Source: Escherichia phage MS2
Sequence record: JQ966308.1
Length of the DNA stretch: 3,398 bases
Strand: one strand, 5' to 3'
Of this stretch, positions 1-3,398 are shown piece after piece; position 1 is the first letter of the stretch; each line of letters opens with the position of its first letter. The notes beneath the pieces were generated by a model. The model made no database searches. It saw nothing but the letters and a program-made list of their open reading frames with translations, and was not told the DNA's origin. A program made the translations under genes and the position numbers.

Positions 1-4
1 ACTC

Positions 5-1186
5 ATGCGAGCTTTTAGTGTCCTTGATCAGGAGTCCGAGACCTTCGTCCCTAGCGTCCGCGTTTATGCGGACGGGCAGGTCGAAGATAACTCGTTTTCC
101 CTAAAATACCGCTCGAACTGGACTCCCGGTCGATTTAATTCGACCGGGTCTAGAACGGAACAGTGGCACTATCCGTCCCCTTATTCTAGGGGTGCGCTCA
201 GTGTCACATCGGTAGATCAAGGTGCCTACAAGCGCTCTGGGTCATCGTGGGGTCGCCCGTACGAGGAGAAAGCCGGTTTTGGCTTCTCACTCGACGCACG
301 TTCCTGCTATAGCCTCTTCCCTGTTAGTCAGAATCTGACTTACATCGAAGTGCCGCAGAACGTTGCGAACCGGGCGTCGACCGAAGTCCTGCAGAAGGTC
401 ACTCAAGGAAATTTCAACCTTGGTGTGGCCCTAGCAGAGGCCAGGTCGACAGCCTCACAACTCGCGACGCAAACCATTGCGCTCGTGAAGGCGTACACTG
501 CCGCTCGTCGCGGCAATTGGCGCCAGACGCTCCGCTATCTTGCCCTAAACGAAGATCGGAAGTTCCGATCGAAACACGTGGCAGGCAGGTGGTTGGAGTT
601 GCAGTTCGGCTGGCTACCGCTCATGAGCGATATCCAGGGCGCATATGAGATGCTTACGAAGGTTCACCTTCAAGAGTTTCTTCCTATGAGGGCCGTACGG
701 CAAGTGGGCACTAACATTAAGTTAGATGGCCGTTTGTCGTATCCAGCTGCAAACTACCAGACTACGTGCAACATATCACGACGAATCGTGATATGGTTTT
801 ACATAAACGATGCACGTTTGGCCTGGTTGTCGTCTCTAGGTATCTTGAACCCACTAGGTATAGTGTGGGAAAAGGTGCCTTTCTCATTCGTTGTCGACTG
901 GCTCCTTCCTGTTGGGAACATGCTCGAGGGCCTCACAGCCCCCGTAGGATGCTCCTACATGTCTGGAACAGTTACTGACGTAATAACGGGTGAGTCCATC
1001 ATAAGCGTCGACGCTCCCTATGGGTGGACGGTGGATAGACAGGGCACTGCTAAGGCCCAAGTCTCAGCCATGCATCGAGGGGTGCAATCCGTATGGCCAA
1101 CAACTGGCGTATACGTGAAGTCACCTTTCTCGATGGTCCATACCTTAGACGCGTTGGCATTAATCAGGCAACGGCTCTTAAGATAG
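5..1186 (+). CDS. mat: Maturation (A / assembly) protein of an MS2-like ssRNA phage, 393 aa; pilus-binding attachment protein present at one copy per virion
   Basis: Full-length ORF from ATG at 5-7 to TAG at 1184-1186. The translation (MRAFS...LDARSCYSLFPVSQNLTYIEVPQNVANRAS...IRQRLLR) matches my recollection of the MS2 A protein over nearly its whole length and is the same size (393 aa). It is the first gene, as in all leviviruses. Confidence 0.93.
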   Translation: MRAFSVLDQESETFVPSVRVYADGQVEDNSFSLKYRSNWTPGRFNSTGSRTEQWHYPSPYSRGALSVTSVDQGAYKRSGSSWGRPYEEKAGFGFSLDARSCYSLFPVSQNLTYIEVPQNVANRASTEVLQKVTQGNFNLGVALAEARSTASQLATQTIALVKAYTAARRGNWRQTLRYLALNEDRKFRSKHVAGRWLELQFGWLPLMSDIQGAYEMLTKVHLQEFLPMRAVRQVGTNIKLDGRLSYPAANYQTTCNISRRIVIWFYINDARLAWLSSLGILNPLGIVWEKVPFSFVVDWLLPVGNMLEGLTAPVGCSYMSGTVTDVITGESIISVDAPYGWTVDRQGTAKAQVSAMHRGVQSVWPTTGVYVKSPFSMVHTLDALALIRQRLLR

Positions 1187-1197
1187 AGCCCTCAACC

Positions 1198-1217
1198 GGA
1201 GTTCGAAGCATGGCTTC
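1198..1217 (+). promoter_or_regulatory. Coat gene ribosome-binding region: Shine-Dalgarno GGAG plus a small initiator hairpin presenting the AUG in its loop
   Basis: GGAG at 1198-1201 lies 8 nt upstream of ATG 1210. GAAGC (1205-1209) and GCTTC (1213-1217) are perfectly complementary and flank the ATG, as in the known MS2 coat initiation hairpin. Confidence 0.7.
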
Positions 1218-1602
1218 TAACTTTACTCAGTTCGTTCTCGTCGACAATGGCGGAACTGGCGACGTGACTGTCGCTCCAAGCAACTTCGCTAACGGGGTCG
1301 CTGAATGGATTAGCTCTAACTCACGTTCTCAGGCTTACAAAGTAACCTGTAGCGTTCGTCAGAGCTCTGCGCAGAACCGCAAGTACACCATTAAGGTTGA
1401 GGTACCAAAAGTGGCTACCCAAACCGTCGGTGGTGTACAGCTTCCTGTAGCCGCATGGCGTTCGTACTTGAATATGGAATTAACTATTCCTATTTTCGCA
1501 ACGAACGACGATTGCGCGCTTATTGTTAAGGCGATGCAAGGTCTCCTAAAAGATGGAAACCCGATCCCCTCAGCAATCGCAGCAAACTCCGGAATCTACT
1601 AA
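1210..1602 (+). CDS. cp: Major coat (capsid) protein, 130 aa including the initiator Met; also the translational repressor of the replicase gene
   Basis: ATG at 1210-1212 lies inside the longer tabulated ORF 1093..1602. The translation MASNFTQFVLVDNGGTGDVTVAPSNFANGVAEWISSNSRSQAYKVTCSVRQSS... is the MS2 coat sequence apart from about three substitutions (Q at codon 1438-1440, D at 1507-1509, A at 1516-1518). GGAG at 1198-1201 is a plausible Shine-Dalgarno. The ORF ends with tandem stops TAA TAG (1600-1605). Confidence 0.96.
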   Translation: MASNFTQFVLVDNGGTGDVTVAPSNFANGVAEWISSNSRSQAYKVTCSVRQSSAQNRKYTIKVEVPKVATQTVGGVQLPVAAWRSYLNMELTIPIFATNDDCALIVKAMQGLLKDGNPIPSAIAANSGIY

Positions 1603-1780
1603 TAGATTCCGTCCATTCCAACATGAGGATTACCCATGTCGAAGACAACAAAGAAGTTCAACTCTTTATGTATTGATCTTCCTCGCGATCTTTCTCTCGA
1701 AATTTACCAATCAATTGCTTCTGTCGCTACTGGAAGCGGTGATCCGCACAGTAGAGACTTTACAGCAATTGCTTACCTAA
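1553..1780 (+). CDS. lys: Lysis protein L, 75 aa single-gene lysis protein (Sgl) with a basic N-terminal region and a hydrophobic C-terminal membrane domain
   Basis: ORF from ATG 1553 to TAA 1778-1780 in the +1 frame relative to coat and replicase. It overlaps the coat 3' end by 50 nt and the replicase 5' end by 145 nt. The translation METRSPQQSQQTPESTNRFRPFQHEDYPCRRQQRSSTLYVLIFLAIFLSKFTNQLLLSLLEAVIRTVETLQQLLT is nearly identical to my recollection of MS2 L, with the same length and position. Confidence 0.92.
   Translation: METRSPQQSQQTPESTNRFRPFQHEDYPCRRQQRSSTLYVLIFLAIFLSKFTNQLLLSLLEAVIRTVETLQQLLT
1600..1605 (+). terminator. Tandem in-frame translational stop codons (UAA UAG) ending the coat gene
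   Basis: TAA at 1600-1602 is followed immediately by TAG at 1603-1605 in the coat frame, the same arrangement as in MS2. Confidence 0.85.
1621..1639 (+). promoter_or_regulatory. Translational operator (TR) hairpin: coat-protein binding site that represses replicase translation and nucleates packaging
   Basis: ACATGAGGATTACCCATGT folds as stem 1621-1625/1635-1639 plus 1627-1628/1633-1634, with a bulged A at 1626 and a 4-nt loop ATTA at 1629-1632. The replicase ATG (1636-1638) is in the 3' arm and the GAGGA Shine-Dalgarno (1625-1629) in the 5' arm. The sequence is identical to the MS2 operator as I recall it. Confidence 0.93.
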
Positions 1781-3273
1781 GAGATGAGTTGCTTACTAAG
1801 CATCCATCATTGGGCAATGGTAATGACGAGGCGACCCGCCGGGCTCTAGCTATTGCTAAGCTCCGGGAGGCGAATGAGCGATGTGGCCAGATTAATAGAG
1901 AAGGTTTCTTACATGACAAATCCTTGTCATGGGATCCGGATGTTTTACAAACCAGCATCCGTAGCCTTATTGGCAACCTCCTCTCTGGCTATCGTTCGTC
2001 GTTGTTTGGGCAATGCACGTTCTCCAACGGTGCCTCGATGGGGCACAAGTTGCAGGATGCAGCGCCTTACAAGAAGTTCGCTGAACAAGCAACCGTTACC
2101 CCCCGCGCTCTGAGAGCGGCTCTACTGGTCCGAGACCAGTGTGCGCCGTGGATCAGACACGCGGTCCACTACAGCGAGTCATATGAATTTAGGCTCGTCG
2201 TAGGGAACGGAGTGTTCACAGTTCCGAAGAATAATAAAATAGATCGGGCTGCCTGTAAGGAGCCAGATGCGAACATGTACCTTCAGAAAGGGGTTGGTGG
2301 CTTCATACGCCGCCGCCTCCGTTCTATCGGTATCGACCTGAATGATCAAACGATCAATCAACGTCTTGCAAAACTCGGCAGTATCGATGGTTCTTTAGCG
2401 ACGATAGATTTATCGTCTGCTTCTGACTCCATATCGGACCGCCTTGTTTGGGAGTTTCTCCCACCGCAAATGTATGCGTACCTGTCTAAAATTCGTTCGC
2501 CACGAGGAATCGTTGACGGACGTATGATCGACTGGCACCTATTTTCCACTATGGGTAATGGATTTACCTTTGAACTAGAGTCCATGATCTTTTGGGCAAT
2601 AGTTAAGGCAACCATGACTCATTTTGGTAACCTTGGAACAATTGGCATCTATGGGGACGATATCATATGTCCCACAGAGATTGCACCTCGTGTGCTAGAG
2701 GCTCTCAGCTTCTACGGTTTTAAACCGAATCAGTCGAAGACGTTCATCACGGGTCGCTTTCGCGAGTCCTGTGGTGCACATTACTTCGGCGGTGCTGATT
2801 GCAAACCGATTTATATCAAGAAACCCGTTAACAACCTCTTCGCCGTCTGTCTGTTACTTAACAGACTGCGCGGCTGGGGTGTTGTGAACGGTGTGTCAGA
2901 TCCTCGCCTCTTCGAGACTTGGAAATGGCTATCCGAACGTGTTCCCTCGATACTTTTCGGTGGGTCAAACCTTGATGCAGACTATTACGTGGTCAGCCGC
3001 CAGGAAGCCAGGAAGCGTTGCGAGGATCATCCAGTATATGGACGTACCCTTGCTCATTTCCACAGCTCTCCTCATCGGTTGTACCGCGTACCCGCCTCTA
3101 AACGCGAATTTTCTTCGCGCGAAGAGTCCGGTCGCCTCATCACTTGGTACCATAATGGCGGTCAAATTATTGACACCACTACGACCCCAAGGGTTCGCCT
3201 TGTGCGAACATCGGAATGGCTAGCGGTAGTGCCATCCTTCCCTCAGGAAGATGACACACGCGAGCTCTCCTAG
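1636..3273 (+). CDS. rep: RNA-dependent RNA polymerase (replicase beta subunit), 545 aa
   Basis: ORF from ATG 1636 to TAG 3271-3273. The N-terminus MSKTTKKFNSLCIDLPRDLSLEIYQSIASVATGSGDPH... matches the MS2 replicase. RdRp motifs are present: motif A TIDLSSASDSISD (2401-2439), motif B MGNGFTFELES (2551-2583) and motif C YGDD (2650-2661). It has the same length as the MS2 replicase, but the C-terminal roughly 120 aa are noticeably diverged. Confidence 0.96.
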   Translation: MSKTTKKFNSLCIDLPRDLSLEIYQSIASVATGSGDPHSRDFTAIAYLRDELLTKHPSLGNGNDEATRRALAIAKLREANERCGQINREGFLHDKSLSWDPDVLQTSIRSLIGNLLSGYRSSLFGQCTFSNGASMGHKLQDAAPYKKFAEQATVTPRALRAALLVRDQCAPWIRHAVHYSESYEFRLVVGNGVFTVPKNNKIDRAACKEPDANMYLQKGVGGFIRRRLRSIGIDLNDQTINQRLAKLGSIDGSLATIDLSSASDSISDRLVWEFLPPQMYAYLSKIRSPRGIVDGRMIDWHLFSTMGNGFTFELESMIFWAIVKATMTHFGNLGTIGIYGDDIICPTEIAPRVLEALSFYGFKPNQSKTFITGRFRESCGAHYFGGADCKPIYIKKPVNNLFAVCLLLNRLRGWGVVNGVSDPRLFETWKWLSERVPSILFGGSNLDADYYVVSRQEARKRCEDHPVYGRTLAHFHSSPHRLYRVPASKREFSSREESGRLITWYHNGGQIIDTTTTPRVRLVRTSEWLAVVPSFPQEDDTRELS

Positions 3274-3398
3274 TCAGCACGGCTAGGGACCCCCGTAATC
3301 GGGGTGGGTGCCGCGAAAGCGGCTATTCATCGTAACAACGATGGATAGGAGTAACCTCCTAATTCGGTGACTAACTTTGCTTGGCTAGTCACCACCCA
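3274..3398 (+). other. 3' untranslated region of the phage genome, 125 nt, with a series of short hairpins and the levivirus 3' terminus ...ACCACCCA
   Basis: Perfect small stem-loops are visible: 3291-3295/3300-3304 (CCCCG/CGGGG, loop TAAT), 3310-3314/3319-3323 (GCCGC/GCGGC, GAAA tetraloop), 3328-3332/3339-3343 (CATCG/CGATG), and 3347-3351/3356-3360 (AGGAG/CTCCT, loop TAAC). The window ends in CCCA. Confidence 0.85.
3366..3398 (+). promoter_or_regulatory. 3'-terminal hairpin plus single-stranded ACCCA tail; likely the replicase initiation site for minus-strand synthesis
   Basis: GGTGACTA (3366-3373) pairs perfectly with TAGTCACC (3386-3393), an 8-bp stem with a 12-nt loop, followed by unpaired ACCCA (3394-3398). 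Levivirus genomes end in CCCA with a terminal hairpin immediately upstream. Confidence 0.75.

What the first reader, a model, noticed from the sequence alone, without database searches (positions are those of the whole stretch)
1553..1780. Out-of-frame lysis gene embedded across the coat-replicase junction
A 75-aa ORF in the +1 frame starts 50 nt before the coat stop and runs 145 nt into the replicase gene, so three reading frames and the operator hairpin are all encoded in 1553-1780. In MS2, L translation depends on ribosomes terminating at the coat stop and reinitiating upstream. The protein keeps the basic N-terminal half and the hydrophobic C-terminal segment (LYVLIFLAIFLSKFTNQLLLSLLEAVI). 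Its few substitutions relative to MS2 (recollection: S5, E14, F19, Q23, E68) must also be compatible with the overlapping coat and replicase codons.
Basis: partly seen in the sequence, partly recalled or inferred. Interest (0 to 1): 0.4.

Follow-up and report, generated by a model that had tools for sequence, protein, structure and literature searches.

The report
Known MS2-type lysis gene L
The 75-codon overlapping reading frame at 1553-1780 is the well-known lysis gene L of an MS2-like RNA coliphage (the window is the published isolate DL54), already annotated in GenBank, so the finding is correct but ordinary.

Summary
An ATG-started 75-aa ORF lies at 1553-1780. It overlaps the last 50 nt of coat (1210-1602) and the first 145 nt of replicase (1636-3273) and spans the operator hairpin (Rfam RF02359, 59.6 bits). 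It matches Pfam Phage_MS2_lysis (E=1.3e-38). The protein is identical to GenBank "lysis protein" entries AFN39799.1, AFN39795.1, ABO33462.1 and WZB35596.1. The window's replicase is exactly AFN39800.1 on a 3398-nt contig, so the window is isolate DL54 (JQ966308; Friedman 2012). The five recalled substitutions relative to MS2 are all confirmed.

Corrections:
- Coat and replicase share one frame, so this is three genes in two frames, not three frames.
- ORF length alone is not significant: 83.5% of synonymous shuffles give an equally long +1 open run.
- The real evidence is homology plus near-frozen replicase third-codon positions inside the overlap (2/48 versus 202/406 downstream, p=6e-11).
- T68E in L coincides with a radical D40R change in replicase.
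- Residues 5, 14 and 19 of L track compensatory base pairs in the lysis and coat-terminator hairpins.
- Coupling to coat termination is established, but for MS2's 50-nt overlap (written -50 nt spacing) the literature favours hairpin unfolding over back-scanning.

Novelty: already known. Interest: low.

The parts
1553..1780 (+). L (lysis) gene, 75 codons plus UAA stop, +1 frame relative to coat and replicase
   Evidence: ORF. Pfam PF11125 E=1.3e-38. Nucleotide-identical to the annotated L CDS of DL52. Protein equals AFN39799.1 'lysis protein'.
1553..1663 (+). L residues 1-37: polar, weakly basic N-terminal domain (net charge +2 over residues 1-36)
   Evidence: Charge and GRAVY. All within-group amino-acid variation in L except residues 68 and 71 lies here. 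Coat third positions in the overlap are not suppressed (6/16 against 39/114, p=0.79).
1664..1744 (+). L residues 38-64: hydrophobic (putative transmembrane) segment LYVLIFLAIFLSKFTNQLLLSLLEAVI, including the Leu48-Ser49 dipeptide at 1694-1699
   Evidence: Maximum Kyte-Doolittle 19-aa window is residues 40-58, score 1.74, with LS at 48. Invariant in all eight MS2-like relatives.
1210..1602 (+). Coat gene (130 aa) ending in tandem stops UAA UAG; its last 50 nt overlap L
   Evidence: Pfam Levi_coat E=1e-67; stop context TACTAATAGATT.
1636..3273 (+). Replicase gene (545 aa), same frame as coat; its first 145 nt overlap L
   Evidence: Pfam RNA_replicase_B E=2.2e-199; exact match to AFN39800.1.
1522..1577 (+). 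Lysis hairpin enclosing the L start codon (AUG 1553-1555 at the apical loop/stem junction)
   Evidence: MFE -16.2 kcal/mol, z=-2.95, same fold as MS2 at -14.0. RNAalifold consensus with a compensatory pair 1533/1566, G-C in 5 sequences and A-U in 3.
1590..1611 (+). Coat-terminator hairpin with the coat stop codons UAAUAG in and next to the loop
   Evidence: MFE -11.4 kcal/mol, z=-4.45. Pair 1593/1608 occurs as A-U, C-G and G-C in different strains.
1604..1639 (+). Replicase translational operator (coat-protein binding hairpin 1621-1639 containing the replicase AUG 1636-1638); also encodes L residues 23-29
   Evidence: Rfam RF02359, 59.6 bits, E=8.6e-13; fold; stem invariant in 8 genomes.
1547..1549 (+). 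UAA stop in the L frame two codons upstream of the L AUG (5' limit of the open frame)
   Evidence: L-frame codons upstream are AAG GTC TCC TAA AAG.

Best explanation
1553-1780 is the L gene of a genogroup-I (MS2-like, JS subgroup) levivirus; the window is isolate DL54. It encodes a 75-residue single-gene lysis protein with a polar, weakly basic N-terminal half and a hydrophobic C-terminal half carrying the conserved Leu-Ser dipeptide.

How it is expressed (inferred by homology to MS2): the L start codon is sequestered in the lysis hairpin (1522-1577) and has no good Shine-Dalgarno sequence, so it is silent on its own. It is switched on only when a ribosome finishes translating coat at UAA-UAG (1600-1605), about 50 nt downstream. 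That ribosome either holds the hairpin open for a new initiation or drifts back to the AUG. This ties a low level of L synthesis to coat synthesis and so delays lysis.

How it acts (inferred by homology to MS2): the product inserts into the inner membrane through its C-terminal domain, oligomerises, and causes envelope lesions and autolysis without blocking net peptidoglycan synthesis. The N-terminal domain only modulates this, through dependence on the chaperone DnaJ.

Shown here: the ORF, its homology and exact identity to annotated L proteins, its conservation, the dual-coding constraint, and preservation of the three hairpins.
Inferred from MS2 experiments: lytic activity, translational coupling, and membrane and DnaJ behaviour.
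For: - ORF and overlaps.
- Pfam Phage_MS2_lysis: E=1.3e-38, 131 bits against a cut-off of 25.
- Exact protein identity to four GenBank 'lysis protein' entries. The replicase is identical to AFN39800.1 on a 3398-nt contig. DL54 is listed as 3398 nt, 96.73% similar to DL52, with ORF3 of 75 aa (PMC3499819). The window is 96.8% identical to DL52 over its full length.
- The frame is open and co-located in nine annotated relatives. L residues 24-66 are invariant in eight MS2-like strains.
- Dual-coding constraint: replicase third-codon positions, which are L second positions, vary at 2/48 sites in the overlap against 202/406 downstream (Fisher p=5.7e-11). Variation resumes 5 nt after the L stop.
- Control: the +1 ORF at 1853-2113 is broken by stops in MS2, R17 and fr.
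- Structures: lysis hairpin, coat-terminator hairpin and operator are all preserved, with compensatory changes.
- Literature on coupling to coat termination: Berkhout 1987 and Schmidt 1987, as reviewed in PMC12548453.
- Literature on the protein: lytic activity lies in the C-terminal 35 residues, the protein oligomerises in membranes, and DnaJ interacts with it (PMC10688784). The four-domain layout, the LS dipeptide and N-terminal DnaJ dependence are described in bioRxiv 10.1101/2023.10.16.562596.
Against: - Nothing in the sequence argues against it.
- No functional test is possible with these tools.
- ORF length alone is uninformative.
- The C-terminal lytic domain carries one change relative to MS2 (T68E), whose effect has not been measured. 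It is shared by plaque-forming isolates DL1, DL16, DL52, J20, FrHenna and GER, so it is tolerated.
- The molecular target of L is unknown in the field, so the final step of the mechanism is uncertain for the whole family.
Confidence: 0.97

Rival explanations
1. Expression variant, the first reader's version: the same ribosome that terminates at the coat stop stays on the RNA, scans about 50 nt backwards and reinitiates at the L AUG. In this model the coat-terminating ribosome does not merely melt the lysis hairpin for a fresh initiation.
For: Scanning reinitiation was demonstrated for the homologous coat-L pair of phage fr (38-nt overlap, -38 nt spacing). It also operates in MS2 constructs when the coat stop is moved closer to the start (PMC12548453). 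The L start has no good Shine-Dalgarno sequence: the upstream sequence is gatgcaaggtctcctaaaagATG, and the only AAGG lies 11 nt from the AUG. That favours a ribosome that is already bound.
Against: For MS2's wild-type 50-nt overlap (-50 nt spacing), adding a second start codon 38 nt upstream of the coat stop gave initiation at both starts. The review interprets this as the unfolding model. The lysis hairpin is conserved and compensated here, and slightly more stable than in MS2, as expected if masking and unmasking of the start is the control point. The two models are not mutually exclusive.
Confidence: 0.35
2. The low variability of 1636-1780 reflects RNA-level constraints at the replicase start (operator, ribosome loading, packaging signals) rather than protein coding in the +1 frame. 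The ORF would then be an unexpressed by-product.
For: The region holds the operator hairpin. Other short invariant stretches exist with no overlapping gene, for example 0 variable sites in 1930-1959. +1 open frames of this length are common by chance.
Against: The suppression is specific to replicase third positions, which are L second positions (p=5.7e-11). It spans all 145 nt and ends at the L stop. The translated product matches a curated protein family at E=1.3e-38. L has been shown genetically and by plasmid expression to be the MS2 lysis gene. The control +1 ORF is not conserved.
Confidence: 0.02
3. The L ORF in this record is correct, but the window is a chimeric assembly. Its 5' 1784 nt, including all of L, would come from the same template as DL52 and DL16, so the L sequence would not be an independent observation of a DL54 L gene.
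For: There are 0 mismatches to DL52 over 1-1784, then 110 over 1785-3398. DL16 differs at only two sites in 1-1784. All three isolates were sequenced by one laboratory from sites hundreds of km apart.
Against: Natural recombination among co-circulating leviviruses is what the authors proposed. FrHenna, from another laboratory, encodes the identical L protein. Either way the identity of the feature as L is unaffected.
Confidence: 0.2

Closest known systems
Lysis protein of isolates DL54, DL52, DL16 and FrHenna (AFN39799.1, AFN39795.1, ABO33462.1, WZB35596.1)
   Same: 75/75 residues identical. The 228 nt are identical to DL52, with one synonymous-in-L difference from DL16. Same position relative to coat and replicase.
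   Different: Nothing. The window is the DL54 record itself.
MS2 L protein (YP_009640126.1, NC_001417 nt 1678-1905), the prototype type II single-gene lysis protein
   Same: Same length, frame, overlaps (50 nt with coat, 145 nt with replicase) and start and stop positions at a constant offset of 125 nt. 70/75 residues are identical. The hydrophobic domain and the LS dipeptide are identical, and so is the set of lysis, coat-terminator and operator hairpins.
   Different: - Five substitutions: F5S, A14E, R19F, K23Q, T68E.
- N-terminal net charge is +2 instead of +5.
- The lysis hairpin is 2.2 kcal/mol more stable through an A-U to G-C pair change at 1533/1566.
- The coat-terminator stem is rebuilt: C-G becomes A-U at 1593/1608, and the MS2 A·C mismatch at 1594/1607 becomes A-U.
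Phage fr lysis protein (CAA33137.1, 71 aa)
   Same: Homologous C-terminal domain, same frame and same stop position, and coupling to coat termination.
   Different: fr starts four codons further downstream, at a UUG (window-equivalent position 1565), which gives a 38-nt overlap with coat. Its N-terminal half is strongly diverged.

Membership tests
MS2-type L lysis protein (Pfam PF11125 Phage_MS2_lysis; type II Sgl) | Sequence match to the family profile above the curated threshold | tested here: met
   131.2 bits against a cut-off of 25, E=1.3e-38, profile positions 1-54 of 54 on residues 22-75.
MS2-type L lysis protein (Pfam PF11125 Phage_MS2_lysis; type II Sgl) | About 75-codon ORF in the +1 frame spanning the coat-replicase junction of a levivirus genome ordered mat-coat-rep | tested here: met
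   mat 5-1186, coat 1210-1602, L 1553-1780, rep 1636-3273. Same layout as nine annotated genomes.
MS2-type L lysis protein (Pfam PF11125 Phage_MS2_lysis; type II Sgl) | Four-domain layout: polar/cationic N-terminus, hydrophobic stretch, conserved Leu-Ser dipeptide, C-terminal domain | tested here: met
   Residues 1-36: GRAVY -2.11, net charge +2. Residues 37-75: GRAVY +1.23. LS at 48-49. Layout as described in bioRxiv 10.1101/2023.10.16.562596. The N-terminus is less cationic than in MS2.
MS2-type L lysis protein (Pfam PF11125 Phage_MS2_lysis; type II Sgl) | Reading frame maintained by selection in relatives | tested here: met
   No interruption in nine relatives, and residues 24-66 invariant in MS2-like strains. 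Replicase third positions vary at 2/48 against 202/406 sites, p=5.7e-11.
MS2-type L lysis protein (Pfam PF11125 Phage_MS2_lysis; type II Sgl) | Expression alone causes host lysis without inhibiting net peptidoglycan synthesis; DnaJ dependence through the N-terminal domain | not testable with these tools
   Known for MS2 L. Inferred here from 70/75 identity and from the viability of isolates that carry the identical protein.
Coat-coupled translational control of L (lysis hairpin / coat termination) | L start codon sequestered in a conserved hairpin, with the coat stop about 50 nt downstream | tested here: met
   Hairpin 1522-1577 has the same fold as in MS2, at -16.2 against -14.0 kcal/mol, with a compensatory pair at 1533/1566. 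The coat stop lies at 1600-1602, with a second stop at 1603-1605.
Coat-coupled translational control of L (lysis hairpin / coat termination) | L translation abolished when coat translation or termination is prevented | not testable with these tools
   Shown for MS2 and fr (Berkhout 1987, Schmidt 1987 and the fr study, as reviewed in PMC12548453).
MS2 replicase operator hairpin (Rfam RF02359) | Match to the covariance model above the gathering score, containing the replicase AUG | tested here: met
   1604-1639, 59.6 bits against 40, full model 1-36. The replicase AUG at 1636-1638 lies in the 3' stem.

The most novel reading that the evidence does not exclude
In this lineage the N-terminal half of L evolves as a passenger of RNA structure rather than under protein-level selection. 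L codons 5, 14 and 19 change in step with compensatory base pairs of the lysis hairpin (1533/1566) and the coat-terminator hairpin (1593/1608, 1594/1607). This has lowered the net charge of the DnaJ-dependence domain from +5 to +2, which could alter DnaJ dependence and lysis timing relative to MS2.
Probability: 0.3. Interest if true: 0.25.

Novelty: already known. Interest (0 to 1): 0.08.

Why it matters
It matters little beyond quality control. The gene is the textbook overlapping lysis gene of MS2 (Atkins 1979; Berkhout 1985 and 1987, as cited), and this exact protein is already deposited and named.

The window is a clean worked example of three points:
1. A long out-of-frame ORF is not evidence in itself. 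Conservation specific to codon position is.
2. The dispensable N-terminal part of an overprinted gene drifts with coat-synonymous sites and hairpin covariation, while the lytic C-terminal part freezes the synonymous sites of the replicase.
3. Natural variants with a much less cationic N-terminal domain exist. They could be used to probe the still-unknown role of DnaJ and the still-unknown target of L.

Tried and rejected
- ORF-length significance. Synonymous-codon shuffles of the replicase show +1 open runs of at least 76 codons in 83.5% of shuffles. The real gene has +1 ORFs of 86 and 110 aa. Length was therefore rejected as evidence.
- 'Three reading frames'. Rejected by modular arithmetic on the start coordinates.
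- 'All substitutions silent or conservative in the other frame'. Rejected for T68E/D40R.
- Rfam E-value scan of the whole window. It found only the operator, and no curated family for the lysis or coat-terminator hairpins.
- tblastn with L. It aligned only residues 17-75 in every record, so N-terminal conservation was read from direct translation of the annotated loci instead.
- Searches failed on an out-of-range end coordinate and were repeated. One search failed on a disallowed search term and was repeated.
- The primary papers on L mutagenesis and DnaJ dependence (Chamakura 2017, two papers) are not held. Those facts are cited through secondary sources. Whether T68 is a mutationally sensitive position could not be checked.

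Full report
**What the window is.** The window has four ORFs in the levivirus order:
- maturation protein, 5-1186
- coat, 1210-1602
- a 75-aa ORF, 1553-1780
- replicase, 1636-3273

Each ORF hits the expected Pfam family: Phage_mat-A, Levi_coat, Phage_MS2_lysis and RNA_replicase_B. Megablast against phage records gives 300 hits, all MS2-like. The best is isolate DL52 (JQ966307), at 96.8% identity over all 3398 nt. Friedman et al. 2012 (PMC3499819) describe a sister isolate, DL54 (JQ966308). They list it as 3398 nt ('nearly full length'), 96.73% similar to DL52, with ORF3 (lysis) of 75 aa. Exact-sequence look-up shows that the window's replicase is AFN39800.1, found on a single 3398-nt contig. 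Its 75-aa product is AFN39799.1, which is also AFN39795.1, ABO33462.1 and WZB35596.1, all named 'lysis protein'. The window is therefore DL54, and the feature is already annotated.

**Checking the observation.** The coordinates, length, start codon and translation are as stated.
- The overlap with coat is 1553-1602 (50 nt including the stop).
- The overlap with replicase is 1636-1780 (145 nt).
- The operator hairpin at 1621-1639 lies inside the interval (Rfam RF02359 at 1604-1639, 59.6 bits).
- The five recalled differences from MS2 L are exactly F5S, A14E, R19F, K23Q and T68E.

Two statements need correcting.
- Coat and replicase are in the same frame: starts 1210 and 1636 are both 1 mod 3, and L is 2 mod 3. 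The region carries three genes in two frames, and no base is read in more than two.
- The 'basic N-terminal half' is much less basic than in MS2. Residues 1-36 have a net charge of +2 against +5, and a pI of 9.5 against 11.3.

**Is it more than chance?** Not by length. In 1000 synonymous-codon shuffles of the replicase gene, 83.5% had a +1 open run of at least 76 codons. The real replicase contains +1 ORFs of 86 aa (1853-2113) and 110 aa (2891-3223). What sets 1553-1780 apart is homology and selection.
- The frame is open, at the same place, in all nine annotated relatives I fetched: DL52, DL16, MS2, J20, DL1, FrHenna, a German isolate, R17 and fr.
- L residues 24-66 are invariant in the eight MS2-like strains.
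- The control ORF 1853-2113 is interrupted by stops in MS2, R17 and fr.
- Among MS2-like genomes only 7/145 sites vary in the L/replicase overlap, against 36/145 in the next 145 nt and 313/1218 over 1781-2998 (p=3.3e-10).
- The effect sits in replicase third-codon positions, which are L second positions: 2/48 variable inside the overlap against 202/406 downstream (p=5.7e-11).
- Variation resumes within 5 nt of the L stop.

In the coat/L overlap, coat third positions are not suppressed (6/16 against 39/114, p=0.79). This fits the experimental finding that the N-terminal half of L is dispensable (Berkhout 1985, cited).

**The substitutions and the other frames**.

| Window position | Change from MS2 | Effect in L | Effect elsewhere |
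|---|---|---|---|
| 1566 | T>C | F5S | synonymous third position in coat |
| 1593 | C>A | A14E | synonymous third position in coat |
| 1607-1608 | CG>TT | R19F | in the 33-nt coat-replicase spacer, where L is the only frame |
| 1619 | A>C | K23Q | same spacer |
| 1753-1755 | GAC>AGA | T68E | replicase D40R, a charge reversal that rewrites the whole replicase codon |

The AGA state is shared by DL1, DL16, DL52, J20, FrHenna and the German isolate. MS2, R17 and fr have GAC.

Three of the N-terminal changes in L are tied to RNA pairing. In the RNAalifold consensus:
- 1566 pairs with 1533 in the lysis hairpin: G-C in five sequences, A-U in MS2, R17 and fr.
- 1593 pairs with 1608 in the coat-terminator hairpin: A-U here, C-G in MS2 and R17, G-C in the German isolate. 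L residues 14/19 read E/F, A/R (MS2; A/C in R17) and G/S accordingly.
- 1607 repairs an A·C mismatch present in MS2.

**How it most likely works.** Three conserved hairpins lie across the junction.
- The lysis hairpin, 1522-1577. It has the L AUG at the junction of apical loop and stem, at -16.2 kcal/mol against -14.0 in MS2, with an identical fold.
- The coat-terminator hairpin, 1590-1611. It has UAAUAG at the loop, at -11.4 against -12.0 kcal/mol.
- The operator, 1621-1639.

The L start has no well-placed Shine-Dalgarno sequence. [quoted passage not shown] For wild-type MS2 spacing, a recent review reads the data as unfolding of the hairpin by the terminating ribosome. Back-scanning reinitiation was shown for fr and for MS2 constructs with shorter spacing (PMC12548453). 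I infer the same coupling here because every element is conserved. This is inference, not shown.

For the protein, MS2 L lyses cells when expressed alone and does not block net peptidoglycan synthesis. It needs its hydrophobic domain and the LS dipeptide, and depends on DnaJ through its cationic N-terminal domain. It oligomerises in membranes through the transmembrane domain, and lytic activity lies in the C-terminal 35 residues (PMC10688784). The window's C-terminal 35 residues differ from those of MS2 only at T68E. The identical protein is carried by plaque-forming isolates from two laboratories. The cellular target of L remains unknown for the whole family.

**Comparison and novelty.** This is the L gene itself. 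Every sequence-level defining feature I could test is met: family profile, position and frame, domain layout, the LS dipeptide, the conserved frame, and the regulatory hairpins. The functional features cannot be tested here. It is already known and already annotated.

The only mildly new points are two. The variable N-terminal residues of L track hairpin covariation. The N-terminal charge in this lineage is much lower than in MS2. Both are natural-variation footnotes.

**Seen in passing.**
- The window matches DL52 at every one of positions 1-1784, then differs at 110 positions over 1785-3398. DL16 differs at only two positions in 1-1784. This is either recombination or amplicon carry-over among isolates handled in one laboratory.
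- Identity to all MS2-like strains falls to about 73% over 2401-3000 and about 47% beyond 3000. This is the published JS recombinant segment, with a shortened 3' UTR.
- The German isolate LT898437 has GUG at the L start, and fr uses UUG four codons downstream.

Noticed in passing
window 1-1784 against 1785-3398 (compared with L001 = DL52 and L002 = DL16): The window has 0 mismatches to DL52 over 1-1784, then 110 mismatches or gaps over 1785-3398. The first is at 1785, 5 nt after the L stop. DL16 differs at only 1494 and 1684 in 1-1784, and DL52 differs from DL16 at only two sites in 1-2255. Three isolates from different US coasts, sequenced in one laboratory, share a virtually identical 5' half. 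This points to a mosaic from recombination, or to amplicon cross-contamination or chimeric assembly.
   Followed up: partly
window about 2256-3398: Identity to all MS2-like strains drops to about 73% at 2401-3000 and about 47% beyond 3000. The 3' UTR is 125 nt against 171 nt in MS2, yet it ends in the levivirus signature ACCACCCA. This is the published 'JS' recombinant replicase and 3' UTR segment, and its donor lineage is unknown.
   Followed up: partly
window 1533/1566, 1593/1608 and 1594/1607: Compensatory base-pair changes in the lysis hairpin and the coat-terminator hairpin coincide with L residue changes F5S, A14E and R19F. Pair 1593/1608 occurs as A-U, C-G and G-C in different strains. 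L residues 14/19 change accordingly: E/F here, A/R in MS2, A/C in R17 and G/S in the German isolate.
   Followed up: yes
window 1753-1755: All three bases of replicase codon 40 differ from MS2 (GAC>AGA, D40R), and the same bases change L residue 68 (T>E). The AGA state is shared by DL1, DL16, DL52, J20, FrHenna and LT898437. GAC is found in MS2, R17 and fr.
   Followed up: partly
window 1853-2113 and 2891-3223: Two further ORFs lie in the same +1 frame inside the replicase: 86 aa with a TTG start and 110 aa with a GTG start. The first is broken by stops in MS2, R17 and fr. The second lies in the recombinant segment and is open in DL52. Such runs are expected by chance: 83.5% of synonymous shuffles contain one.
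   Followed up: partly
L007 (LT898437) 1678-1680; L009 (fr) 1691-1693: The L start codon is not fixed among relatives. The German isolate has GUG in place of AUG at the MS2 position. fr starts at a UUG four codons downstream, which shortens the coat overlap to 38 nt.
   Followed up: partly
window 1930-1959: A 30-nt stretch of the replicase has no variable site among the nine MS2-like genomes and no overlapping ORF. This suggests a local RNA-level or protein-level constraint that remains unexplained.
   Followed up: no
window 1-4: The record starts only 4 nt before the maturation-protein AUG, equivalent to MS2 nt 126. The whole 5' UTR, including the 5'-terminal hairpins, is missing, so the genome is incomplete at the 5' end.
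   Followed up: yes
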